Assembly (NCBI GenBank): GCA_934660865.1
Contig: CAKUIA010000017.1
Location: 30,001-62,000 of the forward strand
Source of the DNA: an uncultured Opitutales bacterium
GTDB taxonomy: Bacteria; Verrucomicrobiota; Verrucomicrobiia; Opitutales; Intestinicryptomonadaceae
DNA length: 32,000 nt
Reading direction: 5' to 3'
The first letter of the stretch is position 1, and each line of letters starts with the position of its first letter. Made by a program: the position numbers and the translations under genes. This document shows positions 6,286 to 28,569 of the stretch, one piece after another. The notes under the pieces were generated by a model. The model saw only the letters and a program-made list of their open reading frames with translations, had not been told where the DNA came from and ran no database searches.

Positions 6286-6621
6286 ATGAAAAACATCGTT
6301 TCAGTCTTGTTTTTTAGTTTAGTTGCGATGGCATTGTGTGCGGCAATGCCGAATACCGTTGCCCATTCCGATAAATTGAATGCGGATACTAAAGTTATAG
6401 ATATACAACTTGATAAAGAAAATGCGGTAAAAATTGCGGAAACCGTGTTATGCCATATTTACGGGAATAAAGTCTTATATCAAAAGCCGTGGCGCGTCGA
6501 GGAAAGCAAAGAATCTTATATCATCAAAGGGCAATTACCTTCCAATACGCTTGGGGGTACGGCAATGGTAGAGATATCAAAGAAAACCGGTCAAGTTCTG
6601 AATTATTCCCACGGCAAATGA
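6286..6621 (+). CDS. NTF2-fold immunity protein-like small exported protein
   Basis: 111 aa with a signal peptide (MKNIVSVLFFSLVAMALCAA). 'ENAVKIAETVLCHIYGNKVLYQKPWRVEESKESYIIKGQLPSNTLGGTAMVEISKKTGQVLNYSHGK' follows the pattern I remember for Imm-NTF2 proteins (A-x-x-IAE...IYG...KP...W-x-V/I-x-G-x-LP...GG...EI-x-K-x-x-G-x-(V/I)L...HGK). Confidence 0.5.
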   Translation: MKNIVSVLFFSLVAMALCAAMPNTVAHSDKLNADTKVIDIQLDKENAVKIAETVLCHIYGNKVLYQKPWRVEESKESYIIKGQLPSNTLGGTAMVEISKKTGQVLNYSHGK

Positions 6622-6736
6622 GATTAACAAAATTTTGTTTATGCAATATAATTTTGGCGATATTTCGCCGTGGCGTTTCATCTTAACCCAACAAATCTTC
6701 AAATATGAAATACACTAAAGACTTAAGTATACGGAT

Positions 6737-7126
6737 ATGAAAAACTATATAAATAAAATTTTGGCACTGGCCCTATTTTTTCTTTTGCATGTCAATGCCT
6801 TCGCAGAAAATATTGAAAACGGCATTTGTGTTTCATACAAGGTTGTACAAGCCCGGGAAATTGAAACAACTTTTTTTAAAGATTCATCAAATGCAAAGCC
6901 AATGCCGAACGATTTGTATGTAATTGGTTATATCCGCCAAAATATACCTGTAAAATACGATGTGTCGTGCACGTTATATTTTTACAACCCCGGACAACGC
7001 GGCTTAAAGAGAATTGCAAAAATCGGTTGGATTGGCACGGGCAAATTCTTTTTATTGCAACTGGGCAGCAAGGATATTTATAGCAAAGATTTGCAATACG
7101 AAATAAAAATTGACATGCGAAAATAA
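6737..7126 (+). CDS. Hypothetical exported protein
   Basis: 129 aa with signal peptide 'ILALALFFLLHVNAFA-EN'. No recognised motif. Lies in the AT-rich islet. Confidence 0.45.
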   Translation: MKNYINKILALALFFLLHVNAFAENIENGICVSYKVVQAREIETTFFKDSSNAKPMPNDLYVIGYIRQNIPVKYDVSCTLYFYNPGQRGLKRIAKIGWIGTGKFFLLQLGSKDIYSKDLQYEIKIDMRK

Positions 7127-7186
7127 TTGGACAAGGCGATTTTTTTGAAAGACTGTTTGCAATACTAAGCATAACATAAAATAGCC

Positions 7187-7567
7187 ATGAAATTTATAAA
7201 ATATATAACAGTTATTTTGCTGATATTGGTTTTTATGTTATGCGCAATTAACCATTTGGTATTTAAAATAGGATACGGTATTCCGGGCGGTGAAATAGAT
7301 TTTGTAGGGCTTACAAAAATCGACGCTATAAAAAAGCTTCAGGAAAAGAAAATTGGAGATTTAATATTAATATTTGTAGGCGGCTATAAAGGAAGAAGTT
7401 ATAAAAATATAAACGAAGTTGAAAAAGACCCGTATATAATACAGTCGAAGATTTTGGGTGTAAACTGTAAACAAGCGGGCAATGTCAATTATATGCAAAT
7501 TCTTTTTTTTGATGAAACAGAACGCGTATATAAACAAAAAATTAGCTATTCATTTGACGGGCCGTAG
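7187..7567 (+). CDS. Hypothetical N-terminally membrane-anchored small protein
   Basis: 126 aa with N-terminal TM/signal anchor 'YITVILLILVFMLCAINHLVF'. No recognised motif. It is the last gene of the AT-rich islet. Confidence 0.45.
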   Translation: MKFIKYITVILLILVFMLCAINHLVFKIGYGIPGGEIDFVGLTKIDAIKKLQEKKIGDLILIFVGGYKGRSYKNINEVEKDPYIIQSKILGVNCKQAGNVNYMQILFFDETERVYKQKISYSFDGP

Positions 7568-20487: not shown

Positions 20488-20976
20488 CTATTCTTTTGCG
20501 GAGGCTTTTTCGGGCAAAATAACCTTCGCTTTTGCCGAAAATTCCACATAGCCGCATACATGCGAATTGCCCGAAATTTCGCTTGTTGTTTTTGTGTCGT
20601 ACAAATTGCTGTAGTACTGCGTGCTTTGCGTTGCGTTTTCGGCGTTTTCGTTGGCGCAGGCCGAGCTTGCATAAAACATTGCAATGCTTGTAAGCATAAG
20701 CGAAAACACGGCGGCCCACTCCAGCGCAACCTGCTTTGGGTTTTCCTTTTTTGCCTTTTCGGGCAAAACCCCCTCTACAGGCAGCGGCGCAAACTTTGGT
20801 TTTTTTCCGTATATTTTGCACGACGCCATATATATTCGGCAATTTTCGTAAAATATGTTGGCAAATTCGGGGTTTTCCCTTATCGCCGACACCAAAAGGC
20901 GAAGCTCCTCGCAGGTAGCTTCGCCGTCTAGGTAAGAGCTTACAATCTCCTGAAACCTGTTTTTAGAAAGCGCCAT
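20488..20976 (-). CDS. Single-pass anti-sigma factor (cognate to the upstream ECF sigma)
   Basis: 162 aa, starting 2 nt after the sigma gene stop. The N-terminus 'IVSSYLDGEATCEELRLLVSAIRENPEF' looks like an anti-sigma N-domain. One TM helix (VALEWAAVFSLMLTSIAMFYA) is followed by a short extracytoplasmic tail. Confidence 0.55.
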   Translation of the reverse strand: MALSKNRFQEIVSSYLDGEATCEELRLLVSAIRENPEFANIFYENCRIYMASCKIYGKKPKFAPLPVEGVLPEKAKKENPKQVALEWAAVFSLMLTSIAMFYASSACANENAENATQSTQYYSNLYDTKTTSEISGNSHVCGYVEFSAKAKVILPEKASAKE

Positions 20977-20978
20977 TC

Positions 20979-21557
20979 CTATTTTTCGGCGTTAAGCTTT
21001 TCCCTTAAAAAGTCTCTTGCGCGCGACAATCTGCTTTTTACGGTGCCAACCCCTATGTTCAGTTTTTCGGCAATCTCTTCGTACGAAAGGTCGTCTTCGT
21101 TCCTAAGTTTTAAAACCTGGGCGTAAATTTCGGGCATTTGCGCCATTGCCCTGGGCAAAAACTCTTCAAGCTCGTTGGTAATGTTGGCCTCGCTGGGAGT
21201 TTGCATTTCGCATTTAATAACATCGCCAAAGGTTATGCTTGCGCCATCGTCGCCCAAAACGGGCTCTTCAAACGAAACGCTTGCGTGCCTTTTTCTGCGC
21301 CACCAATACCAGCTTTTATTTTTGGCCAAATTAGTGGCAATGCGGTACAGCCAGGTAGACAAAGCGCAGTCGCCCCTAAAATTCGAGATTGAATTTCGGG
21401 CTTTAATAAAGGTGTCTTGGGCAACTTCCTCGGCGTCCTGCCTGTTGTTTAGTATTTTGTTTGCCTGATTTAACACCATAGCGTAGTTGTCCGAAACAAG
21501 CTTTCCGAAAGCCTTTTCGTCTCCGCAACGCAATTTAGTAAGTACTGTATCTTCCAT
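20979..21557 (-). CDS. ECF-type RNA polymerase sigma-70 family factor
   Basis: 192 aa. Region 2 reads 'DAEEVAQDTFIKA...STWLYRIATNLAKN'. The region 4 HTH reads 'LSYEEIAEKLNIGVGTVKSRLSRAR'. Confidence 0.85.
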   Translation of the reverse strand: MEDTVLTKLRCGDEKAFGKLVSDNYAMVLNQANKILNNRQDAEEVAQDTFIKARNSISNFRGDCALSTWLYRIATNLAKNKSWYWWRRKRHASVSFEEPVLGDDGASITFGDVIKCEMQTPSEANITNELEEFLPRAMAQMPEIYAQVLKLRNEDDLSYEEIAEKLNIGVGTVKSRLSRARDFLREKLNAEK

Positions 21558-21713: not shown

Positions 21714-23453
21714 ATGAAATTTTTTGGAAACTCAAAGAAATCAATCGGAAGAAAAGCCGTTTTGTTAAACTGCATAAACGGGCAAATTTCGCAGGCGGAC
21801 GAATTTCCCGCAAAAATAGGCGATTCGGAAAATTGCGCGCTAAAGGCAAACGAAGTGTTCGAAGCCCTGGAGCTTTCCTGCGGGCAATCGGAGGGCTTTA
21901 CATTAGGCAGGTGCTCCGACGACAGCGTTCTTATAAATTCAAAAGTTCCCGAAACCGAAACGGTTGTGGAAAACGGCGAATGTACAATACAGTTTTCAAA
22001 CGGCCTGTATATGCTATTTTGCGGCGAAAACGCCCTTAAAAAAGCGCAAAACATAGATTTGTCGCGCTGGTTTTTGTTCGACGCAATAAACGGCCGAATA
22101 GAAGACGAAGTTCCCTTTGTTTCGCTTAAAAACTCGGTTGTAAAGCGCGGGCTAACGGGCGCAGGCTTGGCCATAGCCCCCAAGGGGGCCGATTTGGGCT
22201 TTTTCTATTCGCAGGTATTTAACGAAGGCAGCGCCGATGTAGCTTTAGACGTTGCCCCCGTTTCGTACAACTCGCATGCGATAACCTGCCCCATGTGCTA
22301 TTTAAGCTTCGACATAGGCGACGCGCTAAGCATAGCCTCGCACGAAAGCCTTAGGGGCGACACCGTTTTAGGCCCCGACGAAATGCTTAGGTTTTTACCC
22401 GTTTCGTTCAACGAGCACGGCATTGCCCTAGACCCTATGGGGCTGCCCGCCCCCGACATTGCGTGTCCGCACTGCCGCAAAAAACTGCCGTCGGGCTTTT
22501 TGGATTTAGACGCAAAAATATTTTCGATTGTAGGCGCGCCAAGTTCGGGCAAGTCGTATTATTTAAGCGTGCTTATTAAAGAGCTTAAAGACGTTTTGGC
22601 CCAGCGTTTCGGCGTAAGCTTTAAAGACCTAGACCCTAGCGGCAATATGATGCTTACATTGATGAAAAACAAGCTCTTTTCGGCCACAACAAGCACCGAC
22701 GCAATACTGGCAAAGACTGCTTTTGAAGGCGCAATGTACGAAAAATACCCGCGCTTCGGCAAAATGGTGGCTTTGCCAAAACCGCTAACCTACTCTATTT
22801 CAAACGAAAAGATTTCCGACAAAGCCCTTGTGTTCTACGACAATGCAGGCGAGCATTTCGAGCCCGGCATAGATTTGGAGGACTCGCCGGGGGCAATGCA
22901 CGTTGCAAGCAGCGCCGCAATATTCTTTCTTTTCGACCCGGCCTCGAACAGGGGCTTTAAGGAAAAGCTGCGCGACCACCCCGACCCACAGCTTAAAATC
23001 AAGGGCCGCGTAGACCAGCAAGACACCATTATGTCGGAAATGGAAGTTCGCATTAAGCGAATTTCGGGAATGGAATCGGCCGCAAAAATAAAGAAGCCGC
23101 TTGCCGTTATAATAAACAAATTCGACATTTACAAAGACCTTTTAGACGGGCCTTTGCAAGACTACTATAAAGACGGTGCGCTGGACCTTTCGGCGGTAAA
23201 AAACAACAGCGATAAGATAAGAAAATTTATGATGGCAACCGAGCCTTCAATAGTGTCTACCGCCGAGTCGCTTTCCGAAAACACAATGTTCTTTGCCGTA
23301 AGCCCGCTTGGGCATACCCCCATAAAGATAGAAAGCGGCGAATGCGCGGGCATGATTGCCCCCGACATAGAAAAGCTAAACCCGATGTATGTGGAAGTTC
23401 CCACAATTTGGGCGATAAGCCAAACAATAGACGGGCTAATTAAAACCGTATAG
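21714..23453 (+). CDS. Multidomain TRAFAC-type P-loop GTPase with an N-terminal beta-rich module, a GYF-like segment and a split CPxC...CPxC zinc ribbon
   Basis: 579 aa. G1 is 'GAPSSGKS' (nt 22533-22556), G3 is 'FYDNAGE' (DxxG, nt 22839-22853) and G4 is 'IINKFD' (NKxD, nt 23115-23126). 'CPMC' (nt 22287-22298) and 'CPHC' (nt 22464-22475) lie ~55 aa apart, directly upstream of G1. Confidence 0.75.
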   Translation: MKFFGNSKKSIGRKAVLLNCINGQISQADEFPAKIGDSENCALKANEVFEALELSCGQSEGFTLGRCSDDSVLINSKVPETETVVENGECTIQFSNGLYMLFCGENALKKAQNIDLSRWFLFDAINGRIEDEVPFVSLKNSVVKRGLTGAGLAIAPKGADLGFFYSQVFNEGSADVALDVAPVSYNSHAITCPMCYLSFDIGDALSIASHESLRGDTVLGPDEMLRFLPVSFNEHGIALDPMGLPAPDIACPHCRKKLPSGFLDLDAKIFSIVGAPSSGKSYYLSVLIKELKDVLAQRFGVSFKDLDPSGNMMLTLMKNKLFSATTSTDAILAKTAFEGAMYEKYPRFGKMVALPKPLTYSISNEKISDKALVFYDNAGEHFEPGIDLEDSPGAMHVASSAAIFFLFDPASNRGFKEKLRDHPDPQLKIKGRVDQQDTIMSEMEVRIKRISGMESAAKIKKPLAVIINKFDIYKDLLDGPLQDYYKDGALDLSAVKNNSDKIRKFMMATEPSIVSTAESLSENTMFFAVSPLGHTPIKIESGECAGMIAPDIEKLNPMYVEVPTIWAISQTIDGLIKTV

Positions 23454-23462
23454 GGCAAAACA

Positions 23463-24767
23463 ATGGCATACGAATTGATTTACACAAGTTTGCCCTCGGG
23501 CATTATGGCGGGTCGCTCGGGCTTTTGCGTTGCAGCCTACACCGAAAATATGCCCGAAAGGCTGGTTTTAATGGTCGAAAAATTCAGCAATTTCGACCAT
23601 TGCGGCATTTCCGAAAAATATTCGCTAAACAAGCTTTGCCATTCCAATATAGACTATTATGTGCTAACGCGTTCGGCCGATTGCGGCAAAGACTATACGG
23701 GGCGCACAAACTTCATTTCGCACCATTTGGTTTTGTCGGCAAACGAAATCGCAAAATATCCGAACCCAGCCGACATTCTTTTGCACTACAACTGGCTAAA
23801 TTCCTACACAAAAGCCCCGCAAAAAATAAAGGAGCCGCCCGATTTGTCGAAAATACCGTTCGAAAAGCACGTTCCCTGCAAAACTTGGGGCGAAATTTTT
23901 AAAGACGCAGGCGTTGCGGCTTTCCCCCGCATAAAGGACGATTGCGAAATATACGCTTCAAAGCAGTTCTCCCAAAAAACCATACTAAAGCTTTTTGCCG
24001 AATCTTTGGCGCTAACGGTAAACGGCAAATCGGCGTGGAGCTACACGTTTACAACGGCTTTGGGCTCAAGCGAGGTTGCGTTGTCGTATAAATGGAAAGT
24101 TTTCGCTAACCGTTCAAAAGATTCGAGAAACCCGAACGCCATAGATTTGGATTTGCAAAAAGCCCCCTCTTTTGCCGAATGCAGGCTAAGCGAATATGCA
24201 AGAAGCGGCGTTTTAACCAAAGCCGAAGCCCTGTCGCTTACCGCCGCAAAACCGAAAAAAGCCAACACCAAATTTACGGTTGTAAACACAAAGCCCGAAC
24301 GCACATTCCAGCCTATATATGTATATTCGGTTGTAATCGCCATATTGTGCTCGCTAATTGTTGTTTTGGCCTTTTCGCTGCTGGGCGGCAACAATGCCGA
24401 CGAATACGAAGACTACCCCGAATACGGCGGCGAATCTTTTGCGCAAATAGCAAAAAGGATAGACAACGCCATTGCCCGCAACGACTATTCTTCGGCCTCG
24501 GCAATTTGGTTCGGCTACGAAAACAGGGAAATCAGAAAAGACTACATATCCTTTGTAAATTCGAAAATAAGAAACTCGATAGCCGAAAACTTGCGGGATT
24601 TTGAAAACGCGCTAAATAGTTCCGACACTATAAGCCAAAAACAGGTAGAGAAAATGACAAAAGCGTGCTCAAACGCCGAAAAATACCTCGAAAAGAGCGA
24701 CTTTCCCGACAAAAAATCGCTTTTAAAACGCACAAAACGCCTGCTAGAGCAACTTTCGAAAGAATAA
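23463..24767 (+). CDS. Bitopic membrane protein with a GAP1-like (GTPase-associated protein 1-like) N-terminal domain
   Basis: 434 aa, starting 9 nt after the GTPase stop. 'MAYELIYTSLPSGIMAGRSGFCVAAYTENMP' resembles the YTS...G...GF-x-x-A-x-(S/T) N-terminal signature I remember for GAP1-N domains. One TM helix spans aa ~285-308 (nt ~24315-24386), with a basic flank before it and an acidic flank after it. The ~125-aa C-terminal tail is helical. Confidence 0.5.
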   Translation: MAYELIYTSLPSGIMAGRSGFCVAAYTENMPERLVLMVEKFSNFDHCGISEKYSLNKLCHSNIDYYVLTRSADCGKDYTGRTNFISHHLVLSANEIAKYPNPADILLHYNWLNSYTKAPQKIKEPPDLSKIPFEKHVPCKTWGEIFKDAGVAAFPRIKDDCEIYASKQFSQKTILKLFAESLALTVNGKSAWSYTFTTALGSSEVALSYKWKVFANRSKDSRNPNAIDLDLQKAPSFAECRLSEYARSGVLTKAEALSLTAAKPKKANTKFTVVNTKPERTFQPIYVYSVVIAILCSLIVVLAFSLLGGNNADEYEDYPEYGGESFAQIAKRIDNAIARNDYSSASAIWFGYENREIRKDYISFVNSKIRNSIAENLRDFENALNSSDTISQKQVEKMTKACSNAEKYLEKSDFPDKKSLLKRTKRLLEQLSKE

Positions 24768-24770
24768 TTT

Positions 24771-27518
24771 ATGAACTGCCAACTTTTAATAGTAAAAATA
24801 CAGTCGCTTTTAAACGGCAAAAGCATACCGAACGAAAGCGAAATAAAAAGCCTGTGCGACGAATACAACGCCGTGCGCAATATGTGCGCCGACAGGCTAC
24901 AGCGGTGCGTTGCCCTTATTCGCTCGAACAGGGACTATTTGGCCTTGCAGATTGCCGAAAGCGAACCGCCGGTTTTGGACACAATAAACCTGCTTGAATT
25001 TAAGGGCCTGCCCGAATGGCGCGCGCTGTGCGGCGAATACAACGCCGAATGTGCCCCCGATTTCGACGGATATTACATAGAGCTTTTGCAGTCGCTATAC
25101 ACAAAGGACATAGGTCAAAACCACCCTCTTTACAGAGACTACCGCAGGGCAATGCGCAGCCGCAACTACGACGACGCGCTTAAAATAATCAAGACAATTT
25201 CGCGCATAAATTCGAATAACAACGACATTAAAGCCGAATATGTGCGCCTGCTAAAAAGCCGGGTAAACGAAAAGCTGGCCGAAATAAAAACCGCCCTGCA
25301 AAACAACGACGCAGAGCGAGCCTTAAAGCTGTTCGCCTTTTTGGACGCAAACAGCTCGGAATTCGACACCGACAGCGACAGCTGGCGCGAAGTCTGCCAA
25401 AAAATCGGCGAGCTTAAACTTCAAAACGCAAAGGACGGCGCAAAAGACATTGTGCGCCGCCTAGGCGTGGTAGATGTGGAAAAAGACTACCGCGAGGCAA
25501 TCTCGCTTTTCAACGAATTAAAGCTGCTTGTGTCGGAATATCCCGACATAGTTTCGCAAGGCGATTTGGACAAAGCCGAAGCCCTGAAAAACAAAGCCTT
25601 TGTTTTGAAGGACGAACGCGAAAAAACGGAACTTTCCGCCAGGGCCAAAACGGCGGCGCTTTTGGCTTTCGAAAGCGATTCAAAAAAGGGCAAAACCCTT
25701 GCGCAAAGACTGGCAGACTTTACCGAATTGCAAAACAAATACGGCAAATATTTCGACGAAAATACGGCAAAAAAAGTTTCCCAAAAAGTTTCGTCTATAA
25801 AGCACGCCTTAAAGATAAAACGCCTTGCAAAGCTGGCGCTTGCGTGTTGTGCCCTTGCATTTTTGGCCGTTTGCGCCGCGCTTTGGCGCAATAACAGCGT
25901 AAAAAACGGGCGCGTAAATTCGGCAAAGTCCGAAATCTTAAAAATGCAAAATCTGCAAAGCATAGGCGAAATAAAAAATTCGCTTGCGTATTTCGGCAAA
26001 CAATATGCCGAATTTGCTCCTCAATTTGAAAGGGAAATTGCAAACGCCGAAAACACCCTGCAAATGCTCGAAAGCAGAAAGGCGAAGATAGAAAAATCGC
26101 TGGAAAGTTTGGGGAAAATTAAAGCCGACACCATAAATTCGAGCACTTTTAAGGCGGCTAACGCCGAATTTGCGGCTTTGGAAGAAAGCGCGCAAAAGCT
26201 TCCCCCGCTCGACGAAAGCGAAATCTCCGAAAAAATACAGGCCACAAAACGCCGCTTCGGCATTTTAATGGACACCGTAAAAAACTCTTTCGAAAGGGAA
26301 TTTTCGGCTGCGGCTAACGATGTAGAAAACTGCCTTTCGGCGGTTTCGAGCGACTACGGCAAAAGCTTCGAAAAATCGGTAGTCGAGTTGGGCGCGAAAG
26401 TAAAAACGCTAAAAGACATTGTTGAAAAATATTCTAGAATAGTGCCTTTGCACCCCCTAAACCAGACAAAATACAACGACTATATTTCGAAATATACCGC
26501 ATTTACCGTAAGGCTGCACGACATTAAAAACGCGGAAAACGCGATAAGCAACGCGCGTTCGCTGGACGAGTTTTATTCGGCCCTAACCCAGTTGTCGGCA
26601 ATAAACCCGCTGCCCGAGCGCTTTGCAAAAAACATAAAAATTGCCCAGTCGCAAAAAGAAAGCCTCCTTTACGGCGACTTGGCCGAAAAAATCGGAAAGA
26701 GCGCCTTTAAATGCGCAGGCAAAGAATTTTCCTTCGCCAAAATAGACCTCCTAAACGAATGGGAACAGCTATTCGACATATACGAATATGCCGATAAAGA
26801 CGGCAAAAAAGTGTATACAAGCAAAATCCTTAAGGAAAGAACCAACGAATGGCCCGGCGGCTACGAAATCATACAAACCGGGCGCCAGTTTTCGCGCGAC
26901 GGCTCGCTAAGGCACATATTGCGCCGCAAGCTTGTTTCGGGCGCGTACGTTAAGGTAAACGAGCTTCTTGCTGGCAAAACCCCCGCAAAGGAATCGCTAT
27001 TTTTGGCAAATTTGGCGCGCAAACGCCCCTCTTTGCCCGAAGCTTTAAACGCAATAGCAAATGCCGACATTAACGGTGCATTTAAAGCCTATCTCGAATA
27101 CTCGCTTTTTACCGCCCCGAATACCGACGACATTTCAAGCGGAACCGCATATTCCGAAAGCGCTATGGCGCGCAAACGCCTGGTACTCGAAAAAGCCGCC
27201 GACCTTGCTCCGCTTTCTTGGCTGTATGCCGACAAGGCCAAAGTAGACGACATTAACTTTGCCCTATATTCGCAAAAATCGCCCGACTACCTAAAGGAGG
27301 CAACCGAAACAAAAAACCTTGCAAAGACAATGCTCGAAAACCCGAAAATTTTTGTAGGCTATGCCGACGAGCTTTCGGTTGCGCATTTTTGCGGCGAAAA
27401 CAGCGGCACAATTTTCGGGATTTCGGCCGCAAACGGCAAAGTTGTTGTTATATACGAAAACGGCAAGCTGGTGGAAAAACCCGCAATATTTTCGCCCCTG
27501 CTAAAGGCGCATAAATGA
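24771..27518 (+). CDS. Large (915 aa) bitopic, predominantly alpha-helical protein of unknown function
   Basis: Starts 3 nt after the previous stop. It has a single TM helix (LAKLALACCALAFLAVCAALW, aa ~352-372, nt ~25824-25886). The composition is K/E/A/L-rich and coiled-coil-like on both sides of the TM. I see no catalytic motif. Confidence 0.6.
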   Translation: MNCQLLIVKIQSLLNGKSIPNESEIKSLCDEYNAVRNMCADRLQRCVALIRSNRDYLALQIAESEPPVLDTINLLEFKGLPEWRALCGEYNAECAPDFDGYYIELLQSLYTKDIGQNHPLYRDYRRAMRSRNYDDALKIIKTISRINSNNNDIKAEYVRLLKSRVNEKLAEIKTALQNNDAERALKLFAFLDANSSEFDTDSDSWREVCQKIGELKLQNAKDGAKDIVRRLGVVDVEKDYREAISLFNELKLLVSEYPDIVSQGDLDKAEALKNKAFVLKDEREKTELSARAKTAALLAFESDSKKGKTLAQRLADFTELQNKYGKYFDENTAKKVSQKVSSIKHALKIKRLAKLALACCALAFLAVCAALWRNNSVKNGRVNSAKSEILKMQNLQSIGEIKNSLAYFGKQYAEFAPQFEREIANAENTLQMLESRKAKIEKSLESLGKIKADTINSSTFKAANAEFAALEESAQKLPPLDESEISEKIQATKRRFGILMDTVKNSFEREFSAAANDVENCLSAVSSDYGKSFEKSVVELGAKVKTLKDIVEKYSRIVPLHPLNQTKYNDYISKYTAFTVRLHDIKNAENAISNARSLDEFYSALTQLSAINPLPERFAKNIKIAQSQKESLLYGDLAEKIGKSAFKCAGKEFSFAKIDLLNEWEQLFDIYEYADKDGKKVYTSKILKERTNEWPGGYEIIQTGRQFSRDGSLRHILRRKLVSGAYVKVNELLAGKTPAKESLFLANLARKRPSLPEALNAIANADINGAFKAYLEYSLFTAPNTDDISSGTAYSESAMARKRLVLEKAADLAPLSWLYADKAKVDDINFALYSQKSPDYLKEATETKNLAKTMLENPKIFVGYADELSVAHFCGENSGTIFGISAANGKVVVIYENGKLVEKPAIFSPLLKAHK

Positions 27519-27901
27519 AAAAATACAAAGTATATTGGAAAGGCCGCATTGTGGGCGAATACGGCCGCGCCGAAATTTTGGCTGCGCTAAACTACGGCAA
27601 GCTAGGCATGCTGCATTCGGTAGACTTGGGCAACGGCGAAATTGTGCCCATGCAAAGCTTTGTGGATTTGCAGCAAATTGCCGACAGCAAACCGCAAACT
27701 TCGCCTGCAGCGGTTTTGGCCGCCTATTTCCTTAGCGGATTGTGTTTTTTGGGCTGGCCGTTTTTGGCGGTTTTTGCGCCATACTGTTATTGGATATACC
27801 GCAAAGGGCAAAAAAAGGCGGCAGCCTACACTTTGGTTTTGTCGTTGGCGTTTTCGGTATTGGGCGCGCTTTTCTTTTATATAATGGGTAAACTCGGCTA
27901 A
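27515..27901 (+). CDS. Small membrane protein: GYF_2-like N-terminal domain plus two TM helices
   Basis: 128 aa. Its ATG overlaps the upstream stop (ATGA). 'YKVYWKGRIVGEYGRAEILAALNYGKLGMLHSVDLGNGEIVPMQSFVDL' follows the GYF_2/DUF4339-like pattern (aromatic...G-x-(Y/P)...E-I/L...G-x-L...V...G-x-x-W/V-x-P...F-x-x-L). Two hydrophobic helices follow. Confidence 0.5.
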   Translation: MKKYKVYWKGRIVGEYGRAEILAALNYGKLGMLHSVDLGNGEIVPMQSFVDLQQIADSKPQTSPAAVLAAYFLSGLCFLGWPFLAVFAPYCYWIYRKGQKKAAAYTLVLSLAFSVLGALFFYIMGKLG

Positions 27902-28005: not shown

Positions 28006-28569
28006 ATGAAAAAACTATACGCAGTTTCCTTAATGTTGGCGGCAATGTTTATGCTTTCGGCTTGCGAATCGTGGGACAACCCCTCGCCTTCCGATACTAA
28101 CGCAGCCATGGGTTCGGCCGACAAAAACGGCAACTTGCCCGACGGCTCGTACGGCGCCGACGCCGAAGGCCTTAAAGGTCGCGGCATTAACTCGCTAGAC
28201 GGTTTTGACCCCAACAACATCAATCCCGAAGATATCGTTTGCACGGTTTACTTCGGTTTCGACCAGTATGCAATTCCCGCCTCCGAAAGGGGCAAATTGA
28301 AGGAAGCGGCTCAATTCTATTCGGCCAACCCCAATGTTAAAACGGTTTTGGTAGGCCGCACCGACTGGTACGGCACCGAAGAATACAACCTTTTGCTTTC
28401 CGACAAAAGGGCTTCGGCTGTTAGCGAATATTTGGAAACAAACGGCGTAAACGCCGCCAATATGGAAAGACTTCCCGTAGGCGAAGCAAACGCAACCCCC
28501 GATGTCGATAAAAATTCGCCCCAGGCAAAGCAAGACCGCAGGGTTGAAATTGTAAAACTTACAAAATAA
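28006..28569 (+). CDS. pal: Peptidoglycan-associated lipoprotein, OmpA_C family (Pal-like)
   Basis: 187 aa. 'LAAMFMLSAC-ES' is a lipobox. OmpA_C blocks are 'VYFGFDQYAI', 'LVGRTDWYGTEEYNLLLSDKRASAV' and 'DRRVEIV'. No tol genes are adjacent, so the symbol is tentative. Confidence 0.75.
   Translation: MKKLYAVSLMLAAMFMLSACESWDNPSPSDTNAAMGSADKNGNLPDGSYGADAEGLKGRGINSLDGFDPNNINPEDIVCTVYFGFDQYAIPASERGKLKEAAQFYSANPNVKTVLVGRTDWYGTEEYNLLLSDKRASAVSEYLETNGVNAANMERLPVGEANATPDVDKNSPQAKQDRRVEIVKLTK

What the first reader, a model, noticed from the sequence alone, without database searches (positions are those of the whole stretch)
23463..24767. GAP1-like N-terminal domain tethered to the membrane, with an acidic/helical extracytoplasmic tail
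Seen: the protein starts 'MAYELIYTSLPSGIMAGRSGFCVAAYTENMPERL'. It has one TM helix at aa ~285-308. The flank before it is basic ('KPKKANTKFTVVNTKPER') and the flank after it is acidic ('GGNNADEYEDYPEYGGE'). By the positive-inside rule this puts the ~280-aa N-domain in the cytoplasm, where it could meet the GTPase, and the 125-aa helical tail outside. Established knowledge (from memory): GAP1-N domains begin with a (Y/H)TS...G...GF-x-x-x-A-x-S type motif and are genomically coupled to TRAFAC GTPases. I recall the described GAP1 proteins as soluble multidomain proteins, so a bitopic version would be a distinct architecture. That recollection needs checking.
Basis: partly seen in the sequence, partly recalled or inferred. 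Interest (0 to 1): 0.65.

Follow-up and report, generated by a model that had tools for sequence, protein, structure and literature searches.

The report
Membrane-anchored GAP1-N2 GTPase partner protein
This gene encodes the membrane-anchored partner protein (GAP1, N2 type) of a GTPase operon common in Verrucomicrobiota; the single-pass architecture that looked new was already described in 2020 and is the norm among its relatives, so it is an ordinary member of a known but untested family.

Summary
ORF 23463-24767 (+) encodes the quoted 434-aa protein. It has one transmembrane helix (aa ~285-308), a basic flank before it (+5) and an acidic flank after it (-4/-5), and a confidently modelled helical tail.

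The family assignment holds. Pfam GAP1-N2 matches aa 1-129 (E=2.9e-18, 66.7 bits, cutoff 24). The gene lies 9 nt downstream of a zinc-ribbon TRAFAC GTPase whose only Pfam match is DO-GTPase2.

The novelty claim fails. Kaur et al. [quoted passage not shown] Here, 158 of 169 relatives of at least 330 aa have exactly one TM helix, and tails run from 1 to 911 aa.

An N-in/C-out topology is supported by three things: family-wide charge bias, relatives at 50% identity that end right after the TM helix, and the absence of a signal peptide.

The tail is a conserved ~110-aa helical domain limited to gut and rumen Opitutales. The core system does not need it.

Differences from the published description: no detectable GAP1-M or GAP1-C domain, and no FNIII partner. 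A conserved 915-aa bitopic helical protein follows instead.

Verdict: a new member of a known, experimentally uncharacterised kind. Interest is low to moderate.

The parts
23463..24767 (+). GAP1 (GAP1-N2 type) gene, 434 aa, bitopic membrane protein
   Evidence: ORF and translation. Pfam PF20013 E=2.9e-18. AF2 mean pLDDT 81.2.
23463..23849 (+). GAP1-N2 domain, aa 1-129. Strand/helix order is b-b-a-b-b-b-a. Invariant residues are T8 S9 R18 S19 G20 C22 E39 D77 R81 N83 E95.
   Evidence: Pfam match aa 1-129. Invariant columns in 50- and 28-sequence alignments. Secondary structure from the model.
23850..24236 (+). Second conserved cytoplasmic globular region, aa 130-258 (motifs P138..W142, LFAES ~176-181, W192-x-x-x-FTT). 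No Pfam match, so it is not recognisable as GAP1-M.
   Evidence: Conservation. No Pfam hit even at E<=10. None of 50 relatives hits GAP1-M or GAP1-C. Modelled confidently.
24237..24314 (+). Basic, disordered juxtamembrane linker, aa 259-284
   Evidence: pLDDT below 50 for aa 259-288. Net charge +5 in the 25 aa before the TM helix.
24315..24386 (+). Single transmembrane helix, aa ~285-308
   Evidence: Kyte-Doolittle peak 2.96 and uncharged run aa 284-309. Helix 286-307 in the model. A TM helix at the equivalent place in nearly all relatives.
24387..24428 (+). Acidic, disordered linker on the far side of the membrane, aa 309-322
   Evidence: Net charge -5 over 15 aa. pLDDT below 50 for aa 307-322.
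24429..24764 (+). C-terminal helical domain, aa 323-434, inferred periplasmic. It is conserved only in a gut/rumen Opitutales sub-clade and absent from the relatives at 50% identity.
   Evidence: Helices 326-433 with high pLDDT. Homologous tails in 16 relatives, with A345 invariant and W349 invariant in the tail-only alignment. No Pfam or PDB sequence match. P0003-P0005 end at the TM helix.
21714..23453 (+). Upstream GTPase, 579 aa. It has two CxxC pairs (C192, C251), P-loop GAPSSGKS (274), Walker B DNAGE (376) and G4 NKFD (468). It is a divergent DO-GTPase2.
   Evidence: Translation. Motifs. Pfam DO-GTPase2 E=2.4e-4, 21.3 bits, below the cutoff of 27. All 10 homologues tested have DO-GTPase2 as their best P-loop NTPase match, and 2 reach the cutoff. 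A homologue lies directly upstream of GAP1 in 71 of 85 loci.
24771..27518 (+). Conserved third component, 915 aa. It has a ~350-aa N-terminal helical-repeat region, one TM helix (352-372), long helices, and a beta-rich C-terminal domain (655-915). No Pfam family matches.
   Evidence: Translation. TM prediction. AF2 pLDDT 85.8. Foldseek finds only generic TPR-like scaffolds. A homologue lies directly downstream of GAP1 in 57 of 85 loci. Homologues carry no Pfam domain.
27515..27901 (+). Small protein, 128 aa: a ~60-aa N-terminal GYF-like domain (weak, indirect support) plus a 2-TM hairpin. Its start overlaps the stop codon of the 915-aa gene.
   Evidence: Translation. TM prediction. Homologues in 11 of 85 loci, including an ABC-transporter fusion in L058 whose N-terminus weakly matches GYF_2 (E=6.4e-4).
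28006..28569 (+). Pal/OmpA-like peptidoglycan-binding lipoprotein, 187 aa, lipobox MLSAC
   Evidence: Pfam OmpA E=3.3e-14. NCBIfam Pal_lipo E=9e-21, below its cutoff. Signal peptide and lipobox visible in the translation. Kept with the operon only in the closest relatives, 5 of 85 loci.
20979..21557 (-). Divergently transcribed ECF sigma factor, 192 aa
   Evidence: NCBIfam sigma70-ECF E=3.7e-28, above its cutoff. The same divergent arrangement occurs in 17 of 85 loci.
20488..20976 (-). Probable anti-sigma factor, 162 aa, with an N-terminal 'YLDGE' type helix and one TM helix
   Evidence: Translation. No Pfam hit. The assignment rests on position and sequence pattern only.

Best explanation
The gene encodes the GAP1 component (GAP1-N2 subtype) of a DO-GTPase/GAP1 operon in a gut Opitutales bacterium (Verrucomicrobiota).

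Shown:
- The N-terminal 129 aa are a GAP1-N2 domain.
- A second conserved globular region follows (aa 130-258).
- One TM helix (aa ~285-308) tethers both regions to the inner membrane.
- The gene is tightly packed or overlapping with its neighbours. Upstream is a zinc-ribbon TRAFAC GTPase. Downstream are a conserved 915-aa bitopic helical protein and a small 2-TM protein.

Inferred:
- The ~260-aa N-terminal module faces the cytoplasm. There it binds the GTPase and sets its nucleotide or assembly state.
- The 112-aa helical tail faces the periplasm.
- Across the family, the segment after the TM helix is the hypervariable part (1 to 911 aa; helical, Ig, LRR, DUF1349). I take it to be an exchangeable extracytoplasmic sensing or docking module. 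It would relay envelope or invader cues through the membrane to the GAP1-N2/GTPase switch, as Kaur et al. proposed for membrane-proximal GAP1-N2 systems.
- The helical tail of this protein is one lineage-specific version of that module. It is dispensable for the core machine.
- The output is unknown. Candidates are the 2-TM small protein, as a membrane effector, and the adjacent ECF sigma/anti-sigma pair.
For: Identity:
- Pfam GAP1-N2 scores 66.7 bits against a cutoff of 24. All 50 aligned relatives hit the same model.
- The N-domain has 2704 cluster representatives at E<=1e-3.

GTPase partner:
- It carries GAPSSGKS, DNAGE and NKFD plus two CxxC pairs.
- Among 63 distinct relatives, Walker A, DxxGE and at least two CxxC are each present in 63 of 63.
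- G4 is [NG]KxD.
- DO-GTPase2 is the only Pfam GTPase family matched.

Operon:
- Gaps of 9 nt and 3 nt, then a 4-nt overlap.
- The GTPase-GAP1-915-aa triad is conserved in 71 and 57 of 85 loci.

Topology:
- Flank charges are +5 before and -4/-5 after the TM helix.
- Family-wide mean K+R is 4.28 before and 2.26 after. The N-side is higher in 54 of 74 proteins and lower in 11.
- Relatives P0003-P0005 (about 50% identity) end 1-2 residues after the TM helix.
- There is no N-terminal signal peptide, and the partner GTPase has no TM helix.
- DUF1349 domains lie after the TM helix in some relatives.

Variable tail: lengths run from 1 to 911 aa with different domains.

Published description: membrane-proximal GAP1-N2 systems with TM-fused GAP1, present in verrucomicrobia (PMC7159879).
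Against: - No experiment on any GAP1 or DO-GTPase was found in the searchable literature. Every functional step is therefore inference.
- The GTPase falls below the Pfam DO-GTPase2 gathering score (21.3 against 27).
- GAP1-M, GAP1-C and the FNIII-repeat partner that the paper lists for GAP1-N2 systems are not detectable here.
- The system functions without the tail in the relatives at 50% identity, so a sensing role for this tail is weakly grounded.
- One sub-clade (the ~710-aa proteins) has a reversed charge bias.
- A large clade carries an Ig domain before the TM helix, i.e. on the inferred cytoplasmic side. That is unusual.
- Nine relatives lack an adjacent GTPase.
- No PADLOC defence model matches.
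- No plasmid or phage copies were found.
- The window context is housekeeping.
- The last three points do not particularly favour a mobile defence system.
Confidence: 0.7

Rival explanations
1. Same protein family, different biology. In Verrucomicrobiota the GTPase-GAP1-915-aa triad would be a vertically inherited, housekeeping trans-envelope signalling or envelope-maintenance machine rather than an anti-invader conflict system. In this lineage it would be wired to an ECF sigma/anti-sigma pair and a Pal-like lipoprotein.
For: - The triad is found across Opitutales, Puniceicoccales, Limisphaerales and Verrucomicrobiia. There were 181 confirmed loci among species representatives, and 80 were kept.
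- The GTPase is highly conserved (E about 1e-100 to 1e-150).
- The divergent ECF sigma is conserved in 17 of 85 loci, and Pal/OmpA in the closest relatives.
- The window context is chromosomal and housekeeping.
- No PADLOC hit. No plasmid or phage copies.
Against: - The extracytoplasmic tail of GAP1 is hypervariable in length and domain content. That is the hallmark Kaur et al. use to argue for conflict.
- One distant relative sits beside helicase/MZB/PLD/Vsr genes, a defence-island-like context.
- I made no presence/absence census across complete genomes, so vertical inheritance is not shown.
Confidence: 0.3
2. The GAP1-N2 domain would be a longin/roadblock/PAS-like GTPase-regulatory platform. 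It would act directly as a GAP or GEF for the upstream GTPase, for example through invariant R18 or R81, with membrane tethering serving only to localise the switch.
For: - The modelled strand/helix order b-b-a-b-b-b-a for aa 1-108 is the longin order.
- Foldseek hits include TagF (E=0.01, prob 0.98), FLCN-FNIP2 (6ulg_N), the Lst4 longin domain (4zy8_C) and many PAS domains.
- Longin and roadblock domains are established GTPase platforms (PMC3521125, PMC3747258).
- R18, D77, R81 and N83 are invariant, and H87/H88 nearly so.
Against: - No Foldseek hit reaches E<=1e-3, and all TM-scores are below 0.5. The fold class cannot be told apart from PAS.
- The defining paper does not propose this.
- No complex model or biochemistry exists.
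Confidence: 0.25
3. The tail would not be a sensor. It would be a structural spacer or oligomerisation module that docks onto the periplasmic helical stalk of the 915-aa protein, or a neutral lineage-specific addition.
For: - The relatives at 50% identity lack the tail entirely yet keep the same operon, with a 913-aa partner of unchanged length.
- The tail is an all-helical bundle with no pocket-type fold match.
- The tail profile shows a weak similarity to aa 122-194 of the 915-aa protein (hhalign E=0.008, prob 5%).
Against: - The tail is conserved as a domain at 14-23% identity over 16 relatives, with A345 and W349 invariant. So it is under selection.
- The matched region of the 915-aa protein is on the inferred cytoplasmic side. 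Homotypic contact is therefore unlikely.
Confidence: 0.3
4. Inverted topology: the GAP1-N2 module would be extracytoplasmic and the tail cytoplasmic.
For: - A minority sub-clade has more K+R after the TM helix than before it (11 of 74).
- Ig domains lie before the TM helix in many relatives, and Ig domains are more often extracytoplasmic.
Against: - There is no signal peptide, and 260-430 aa precede the only TM helix. From established knowledge, bacteria rarely translocate long N-terminal domains without a signal peptide.
- This protein shows a strong positive-inside bias, and so does the family mean.
- Tail-anchored relatives exist.
- The co-evolving partner GTPase is cytoplasmic.
Confidence: 0.04

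Closest known systems
GAP1-N2-type DO-GTPase/GAP1 conflict systems (Kaur, Burroughs, Iyer, Aravind, eLife 2020, PMC7159879; Pfam PF20013 GAP1-N2, PF19993 DO-GTPase2)
   Same: - N-terminal GAP1-N2 domain.
- Gene directly downstream of a TRAFAC GTPase with Glu after the Walker B glycine and N-terminal zinc-ribbon cysteines.
- C-terminal TM helix fused to GAP1.
- Membrane-proximal operon with other TM proteins.
- Occurrence in verrucomicrobia.
- A GYF-like + TM protein resembling the planctomycete variants the paper mentions.
   Different: - No detectable GAP1-M or GAP1-C domain.
- No FNIII-repeat partner. A conserved Pfam-less 915-aa bitopic helical protein takes its place.
- One GTPase gene, not two.
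- G4 is mostly GKxD in relatives.
- The GTPase is just under the Pfam cutoff.
- No recognisable enzymatic effector.
- ECF sigma/anti-sigma and Pal-like genes are attached in this lineage.
Longin/roadblock GTPase platforms (MglB-MglA, DENN uDENN, FLCN-FNIP, Lst4-Lst7, Ragulator)
   Same: A small alpha/beta domain genomically or physically paired with a P-loop GTPase. The same b-b-a-b-b-b-a order appears in the model. Weak Foldseek hits reach FLCN-FNIP2 and the Lst4 longin domain.
   Different: No significant structural or sequence match (best E=0.01, TM-scores below 0.5). The GTPase is not an MglA/Ras-like small GTPase. GAP1 is membrane-tethered and carries a second domain. Membership is not established.
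Bitopic 'N-in' transmembrane signalling proteins of bacteria (ToxR/CadC-type one-component regulators; RseA/RsiW-type anti-sigma factors)
   Same: The layout is the same: a cytoplasmic N-terminal module that binds a cytoplasmic partner, then a basic juxtamembrane stretch, a single TM helix, and a variable periplasmic C-terminal domain. This comparison concerns how it may work, not homology.
   Different: There is no sequence or fold relationship. The cytoplasmic partner is a GTPase rather than DNA or a sigma factor. No evidence exists for regulated proteolysis.

Membership tests
GAP1, GAP1-N2 subtype (Kaur et al. 2020; Pfam PF20013) | N-terminal GAP1-N2 domain | tested here: met
   Pfam E=2.9e-18, 66.7 bits against a cutoff of 24, covering aa 1-129 and profile positions 1-137 of 139. 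All 50 relatives also match.
GAP1, GAP1-N2 subtype | Encoded directly downstream of (or fused to) a DO-GTPase gene | tested here: met
   The GTPase gene ends 9 nt before the GAP1 start. A homologous GTPase lies directly upstream in 71 of 85 related loci.
GAP1, GAP1-N2 subtype | Three globular domains: GAP1-N, GAP1-M and GAP1-C | tested here: not met
   No Pfam hit for aa 119-282 even at E<=10. None of 50 relatives hits a GAP1-M or GAP1-C model at E<=1e-3. A second conserved globular region (aa 130-258) exists and could be a diverged GAP1-M. A profile-profile test against GAP1-M could not be run. The place of GAP1-C is taken by the TM helix plus tail.
GAP1, GAP1-N2 subtype | C-terminal TM segment fused to GAP1 (described as frequent in N2-type systems) | tested here: met
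   TM helix at aa ~285-308. 158 of 169 relatives have exactly one TM helix.
DO-GTPase (Pfam PF19993 DO-GTPase2) | TRAFAC GTPase with a conserved glutamate in the Walker B motif | tested here: met
   GAPSSGKS, hhhhDNAGE and NKFD are present. DxxGE is present in 63 of 63 relatives, and 'YDNAGEHF' is nearly invariant.
DO-GTPase (Pfam PF19993 DO-GTPase2) | Passes the curated Pfam model | tested here: inconclusive
   The window protein scores 21.3 bits (E=2.4e-4) against a cutoff of 27. Ten of ten homologues hit DO-GTPase2 at 18.7-27.3 bits, and two reach the cutoff.
DO-GTPase (GAP1-N2-associated type) | N-terminal zinc ribbon(s) on the GTPase | tested here: met
   CPMC at 192 and CPHC at 251 precede the P-loop. 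At least two CxxC are present in 63 of 63 relatives and at least four in 26 of 63. Some relatives show DZR/Zn-ribbon Pfam hits.
GAP1-N2-type system (operon level) | Partner protein with rapidly evolving FNIII repeats | tested here: not met
   No FNIII Pfam hit in any operon protein. The conserved downstream 915-aa protein is helical with a C-terminal beta-rich domain and has no Pfam family.
GAP1-N2-type system (operon level) | Two paralogous GTPases (stated for 38% of systems, so not obligatory) | tested here: not met
   Only one P-loop GTPase ORF lies in the operon.
Longin/roadblock GTPase-regulatory domains | Five-stranded sheet with b-b-a-b-b-b-a(-a) topology and significant structural similarity to known longin domains | tested here: inconclusive
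   The element order matches. Foldseek gives no hit at E<=1e-3, longin hits lie at E 0.2-0.5 with TM-scores below 0.5, and PAS domains score equally well.
Known anti-phage defence systems (PADLOC-DB v2) | Match of any operon protein to a defence-system model | tested here: not met
   There are no hits other than MotB/OmpA-type similarity of the lipoprotein and noise-level hits.

The most novel reading that the evidence does not exclude
The Verrucomicrobiota-wide triad consists of a zinc-ribbon GTPase, a single-pass GAP1-N2 protein with a hypervariable extracytoplasmic tail, and a ~900-1000-aa bitopic helical protein. It lacks the GAP1-M, GAP1-C and FNIII parts of the published systems. On this reading it would be a distinct, largely vertically inherited transmembrane 'receptor-G-protein' module. 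A longin/PAS-like GAP1-N2 platform would convert extracytoplasmic signals into a GTPase state. In gut Opitutales it would feed an ECF sigma/Pal envelope circuit. It would not be a classical abortive-infection system.
Probability: 0.2. Interest if true: 0.65.

Novelty: new member of a known kind. Interest (0 to 1): 0.3.

Why it matters
The finding as stated does not add a new architecture. TM-fused GAP1-N2 proteins were described when the family was defined, and they dominate among relatives.

Its value is as a clean, compact example of a system that is still experimentally untouched. It has five tightly linked genes, confident structure models and a clear predicted topology. Natural tail-less and tail-swapped variants are available for comparison.

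If the DO-GTPase/GAP1 pair is a transmembrane switch, the variants could be used to test how signals cross the membrane to a bacterial GTPase. These include the tail-anchored form, the helical tail, and the Ig, LRR and DUF1349 tails.

The lack of GAP1-M, GAP1-C and FNIII, together with the conserved 915-aa partner, suggests that the verrucomicrobial systems deserve their own subtype in future classifications.

Tried and rejected
- Pfam at E<=10 on aa 119-282, on the tail, on the 128-aa protein, on the GTPase N-terminus and on the C-terminus of the 915-aa protein gave nothing usable.
- NCBIfam gave no family for the GAP1, the GTPase, or the 915-aa and 128-aa proteins.
- PADLOC matched no defence model.
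- A PDB sequence search with the GTPase returned only noise. The same search with the tail profile also returned only noise.
- Foldseek of the GAP1 model found nothing significant against PDB or the viral library. I keep the longin/PAS-like resemblance only as a weak lead.
- Foldseek of the 915-aa model found only generic TPR and helical-repeat scaffolds, with very low TM-scores.
- I recalled that TagF is a DENN/longin-like protein and tried to confirm it in the literature. Neither PMC3521125 nor a TagF+longin search supported it, so the claim is dropped.
- The supplement of the eLife paper held as text contains no GAP1-N2 or Verrucomicrobia entries.
- I aligned the sigma-GTPase intergenic regions to look for a shared ECF-type promoter. 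No convincing conserved motif emerged. The sigma-70 and terminator scans were at background level.
- hhalign of the tail profile against the 915-aa protein profile gave 5% probability. I treat it as generic TPR-like similarity.
- tblastn of the N-domain against plasmids and phages found no match.
- I rejected an inverted (N-out) topology, and I rejected the idea that the hydrophobic segment is not a TM helix. It is a 24-26-residue uncharged run with a Kyte-Doolittle score of 2.96, and it is conserved in position.
Full report
**1. Observation**

ORF 23463-24767 (+) is real.

A simple hydropathy scan finds one hydrophobic segment. The Kyte-Doolittle 19-residue peak is 2.96 at aa 290-308, and an uncharged run spans aa 284-309. 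The 25 residues before it carry a net charge of +5. The 15 and 25 residues after it carry -5 and -4.

I built an AlphaFold2 model on an 18-sequence alignment; its mean pLDDT is 81.2. It shows:
- a confident globular region at aa 1-258;
- a disordered basic linker at aa 259-288;
- a helix at aa 286-307;
- a disordered acidic linker at aa 307-322;
- a confident helical bundle at aa 326-433.

Every descriptive element of the finding is therefore confirmed.

**2. Identity**

Pfam matches GAP1-N2 (PF20013) over aa 1-129 with E=2.9e-18 and 66.7 bits against a cutoff of 24.

The gene 9 nt upstream (21714-23453) encodes a 579-aa P-loop protein. It has GAPSSGKS, a Walker B followed by glutamate (DNAGE), NKFD, and two CxxC pairs before the P-loop. 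Its only Pfam match is DO-GTPase2, at 21.3 bits, just under the cutoff of 27.

All ten homologous GTPases that I scanned gave DO-GTPase2 as their GTPase-family match, and two reached the cutoff. Across 63 distinct relatives, Walker A, DxxGE and at least two CxxC are each present in 63 of 63. The G4 motif is [NG]KxD.

These are the features that Kaur, Burroughs, Iyer and Aravind (eLife 2020, PMC7159879) give for DO-GTPases and for the GAP1-N2-associated type: a glutamate in Walker B, N-terminal zinc ribbons, and GAP1 encoded downstream.

**3. The novelty claim**

The defining paper says otherwise. [quoted passage not shown] My own census agrees:
- Nearly every complete GAP1 homologue in 85 fetched loci has exactly one TM helix, 270-445 aa from the N-terminus. 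It is followed by a tail of 1 to 911 aa.
- Of 169 database relatives of at least 330 aa, 158 have exactly one predicted TM helix.
- The N-domain has 2704 cluster representatives at E<=1e-3 among 1.84 billion.
- The genome hits are almost all Verrucomicrobiota (Opitutales, Puniceicoccales, Limisphaerales, Verrucomicrobiia). The closest, at 83% identity, are human-gut and other gut Opitutales MAGs.

**4. Topology**

An N-in/C-out topology is the best-supported reading. None of the following is an experiment.
- The protein shows a strong positive-inside bias.
- The bias holds for the family. Mean K+R in the 15-residue flanks is 4.28 before and 2.26 after the TM helix. The N-side is higher in 54 of 74 proteins and lower in 11.
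- The closest relatives outside the species (P0003-P0005, about 50% identity, 307-308 aa) end one or two residues after the TM helix. They are tail-anchored proteins whose whole soluble part must be cytoplasmic.
- There is no signal peptide. The 260-430 residues that precede the only TM helix would have to cross the membrane for an N-out topology.
- The co-evolving GTPase has no TM segment.
- In some relatives a DUF1349 domain lies after the TM helix.

**5. The tail**

The 112-aa helical tail is not random sequence. It aligns with the tails of 16 relatives of 434-470 aa from gut and rumen Opitutales at 14-23% identity. A345 and W349 are invariant in the tail-only alignment, and the consensus runs Y..(I)...I....WQ.AL..WD.....NP..R..IL..IG...D.L..AE.

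It has no Pfam or PDB sequence match. It is absent from the relatives at 50% identity, which keep the same operon with a partner of unchanged length.

Across the family, the post-TM segment is the hypervariable part. Versions include nothing at all, a helical bundle, Ig, LRR, DUF1349, and long Pfam-less regions of up to about 900 aa.

**6. The operon**

- GTPase to GAP1: 9-nt gap.
- GAP1 to a 915-aa protein: 3-nt gap.
- 915-aa protein to a 128-aa protein: 4-nt overlap.
- 128-aa protein to a Pal/OmpA-like lipoprotein with an MLSAC lipobox: 104-nt gap.

The 915-aa protein has one TM helix (aa 352-372), no signal peptide, and a modest positive-inside bias for an N-in orientation (K+R 4.8 against 3.05 over 19 homologues). 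It has no Pfam family. Its model is confident (pLDDT 85.8): helical repeats followed by a beta-rich C-terminal domain. That model matches only generic TPR-like scaffolds.

A homologue of the 915-aa protein lies directly downstream of GAP1 in 57 of 85 loci, and the GTPase lies upstream in 71 of 85. This includes distant soil relatives. GTPase, GAP1 and this protein therefore form the conserved triad.

The 128-aa protein has a ~60-aa N-terminal domain plus a 2-TM hairpin. The ECF sigma/anti-sigma pair is transcribed divergently. These genes and the Pal-like gene are conserved only in subsets: 11, 17 and 5 of 85 loci.

The N-terminal domain of the 128-aa protein is only indirectly GYF-like. phmmer links it to an ABC-transporter fusion in L058 whose N-terminus weakly matches GYF_2. 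The paper does mention GYF + TM proteins in planctomycete GAP1-N2 systems.

**7. How this example differs from the published description**

- No GAP1-M or GAP1-C is detectable, either in the window protein or in any of 50 relatives. A second conserved globular region (aa 130-258, with P138/W142, LFAES and W192..FTT) might be a diverged GAP1-M.
- There is no FNIII-repeat partner.
- There is only one GTPase.
- There is no recognisable enzymatic effector.
- No PADLOC model matches. The N-domain has no tblastn match in plasmid or phage collections. The window context is housekeeping, with polysaccharide synthesis, RecD2, phosphatidylserine decarboxylase and similar genes.

These points leave room for a non-defence, envelope-signalling role. 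They do not demonstrate one.

**8. Mechanism I commit to**

Identity has a confidence of about 0.9. The mechanism has about 0.5.

The cytoplasmic GAP1-N2 module and the second domain bind the zinc-ribbon GTPase at the inner face of the membrane. The extracytoplasmic tail varies between lineages. Together with the ~545-aa periplasmic part of the 915-aa protein, it receives an envelope-side cue. The TM helix couples this cue to the GTPase switch.

The output is unknown. The candidates are the 2-TM small protein and the neighbouring ECF sigma circuit.

A weaker structural lead concerns the fold. GAP1-N2 has the b-b-a-b-b-b-a order of longin domains. Its best Foldseek hits are TagF, PAS domains, FLCN-FNIP2 and the Lst4 longin domain (E 0.01-0.5, TM-scores below 0.5). 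Longin and roadblock domains are classic GTPase platforms (PMC3521125, PMC3747258). The match is not significant, and the defining paper does not mention it.

**9. Verdict**

- The family assignment and topology are supported.
- The claimed architectural novelty is refuted by the literature and by the census.
- This is a new member of a known but experimentally uncharacterised kind. No paper other than the 2020 study mentions GAP1-N2 in the searchable library.
- It shows lineage-specific deviations worth recording.

Noticed in passing
L010, L018, L034, L036, L042, L044, L057, L061, L073 (GAP1 genes at about 7.7-9.5 kb of each locus): A sub-clade of single-TM GAP1-N2 proteins (465-500 aa) from rumen and gut Opitutales MAGs has no adjacent GTPase and no homologue of the 915-aa protein. 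The upstream gene is an aspartokinase (AA_kinase + ACT). These are 'orphan' GAP1-N2 genes whose partner, if any, is encoded elsewhere.
   Followed up: partly
P0006-P0014; L013 and L037 (Ig at aa ~270-350, TM helix at aa ~411-431): In the Limisphaerales/Verrucomicrobiia clade an I-set/Ig_3 domain sits between the GAP1 N-module and the TM helix, on the inferred cytoplasmic side. DUF1349 sits after the TM helix. A cytoplasmic Ig domain is unusual and is the main observation that does not fit the N-in model comfortably.
   Followed up: partly
window 20488-21557 (-), and the equivalent genes in L001, L002, L006-L009, L012, L068-L070, L074, L076, L077, L079, L082-L084: An ECF sigma factor is transcribed divergently from the GTPase operon. 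In the window it is followed by a probable single-TM anti-sigma factor. The arrangement is kept in 17 of 85 loci spanning quite different Opitutales, which suggests regulatory coupling. No shared promoter motif was found.
   Followed up: partly
window 23112-23126 (GTPase aa 467-471) and homologues: The G4 motif of this GTPase family is mostly GK[CSY]D rather than the canonical NKxD. The window protein and its closest relatives have NKFD. The guanine-contacting Asp is kept.
   Followed up: yes
window 21714-22280 (GTPase aa 1-189): The first ~190 residues of the GTPase, before the zinc-ribbon cysteines, have no Pfam match. By eye they contain an FHA-like and a GYF-like stretch. More distant relatives (465 aa) lack this region and start with a double zinc ribbon instead.
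   Followed up: no
L004/L005 1-7100: In a soil-metagenome relative, the GTPase-GAP1-984-aa operon lies next to genes for a large helicase, an MZB (DUF1998) protein, a PLD nuclease and Vsr. This is a defence-island-like neighbourhood, unlike the housekeeping context of the window.
   Followed up: no
window 6286-7567 (+): A 111-aa NTF2-fold immunity protein (Imm-NTF2-2, E=5.5e-15) is followed by two small Pfam-less ORFs (129 and 126 aa). This may be an orphan polymorphic-toxin immunity cluster. It is unrelated to the finding.
   Followed up: no
window 24429-24764 versus 25134-25352 (aa 122-194 of the 915-aa protein): The tail profile aligns weakly (hhalign E=0.008, probability 5%) to the most conserved N-terminal region of the 915-aa partner ('RDYRRAMRSRNYDDALKII...'). 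This is probably generic TPR-like similarity, and the two regions are predicted to lie on opposite sides of the membrane.
   Followed up: partly
window 27515-27901; L058 7200-9371: The small 2-TM protein has a strongly basic loop between its two TM helices (RKGQKK). By the positive-inside rule this would put its ~65-aa N-terminal GYF-like domain in the periplasm. In L058 the same N-terminal domain is fused to an ABC transporter (ABC_tran + ABC2_membrane) encoded after the triad.
   Followed up: no
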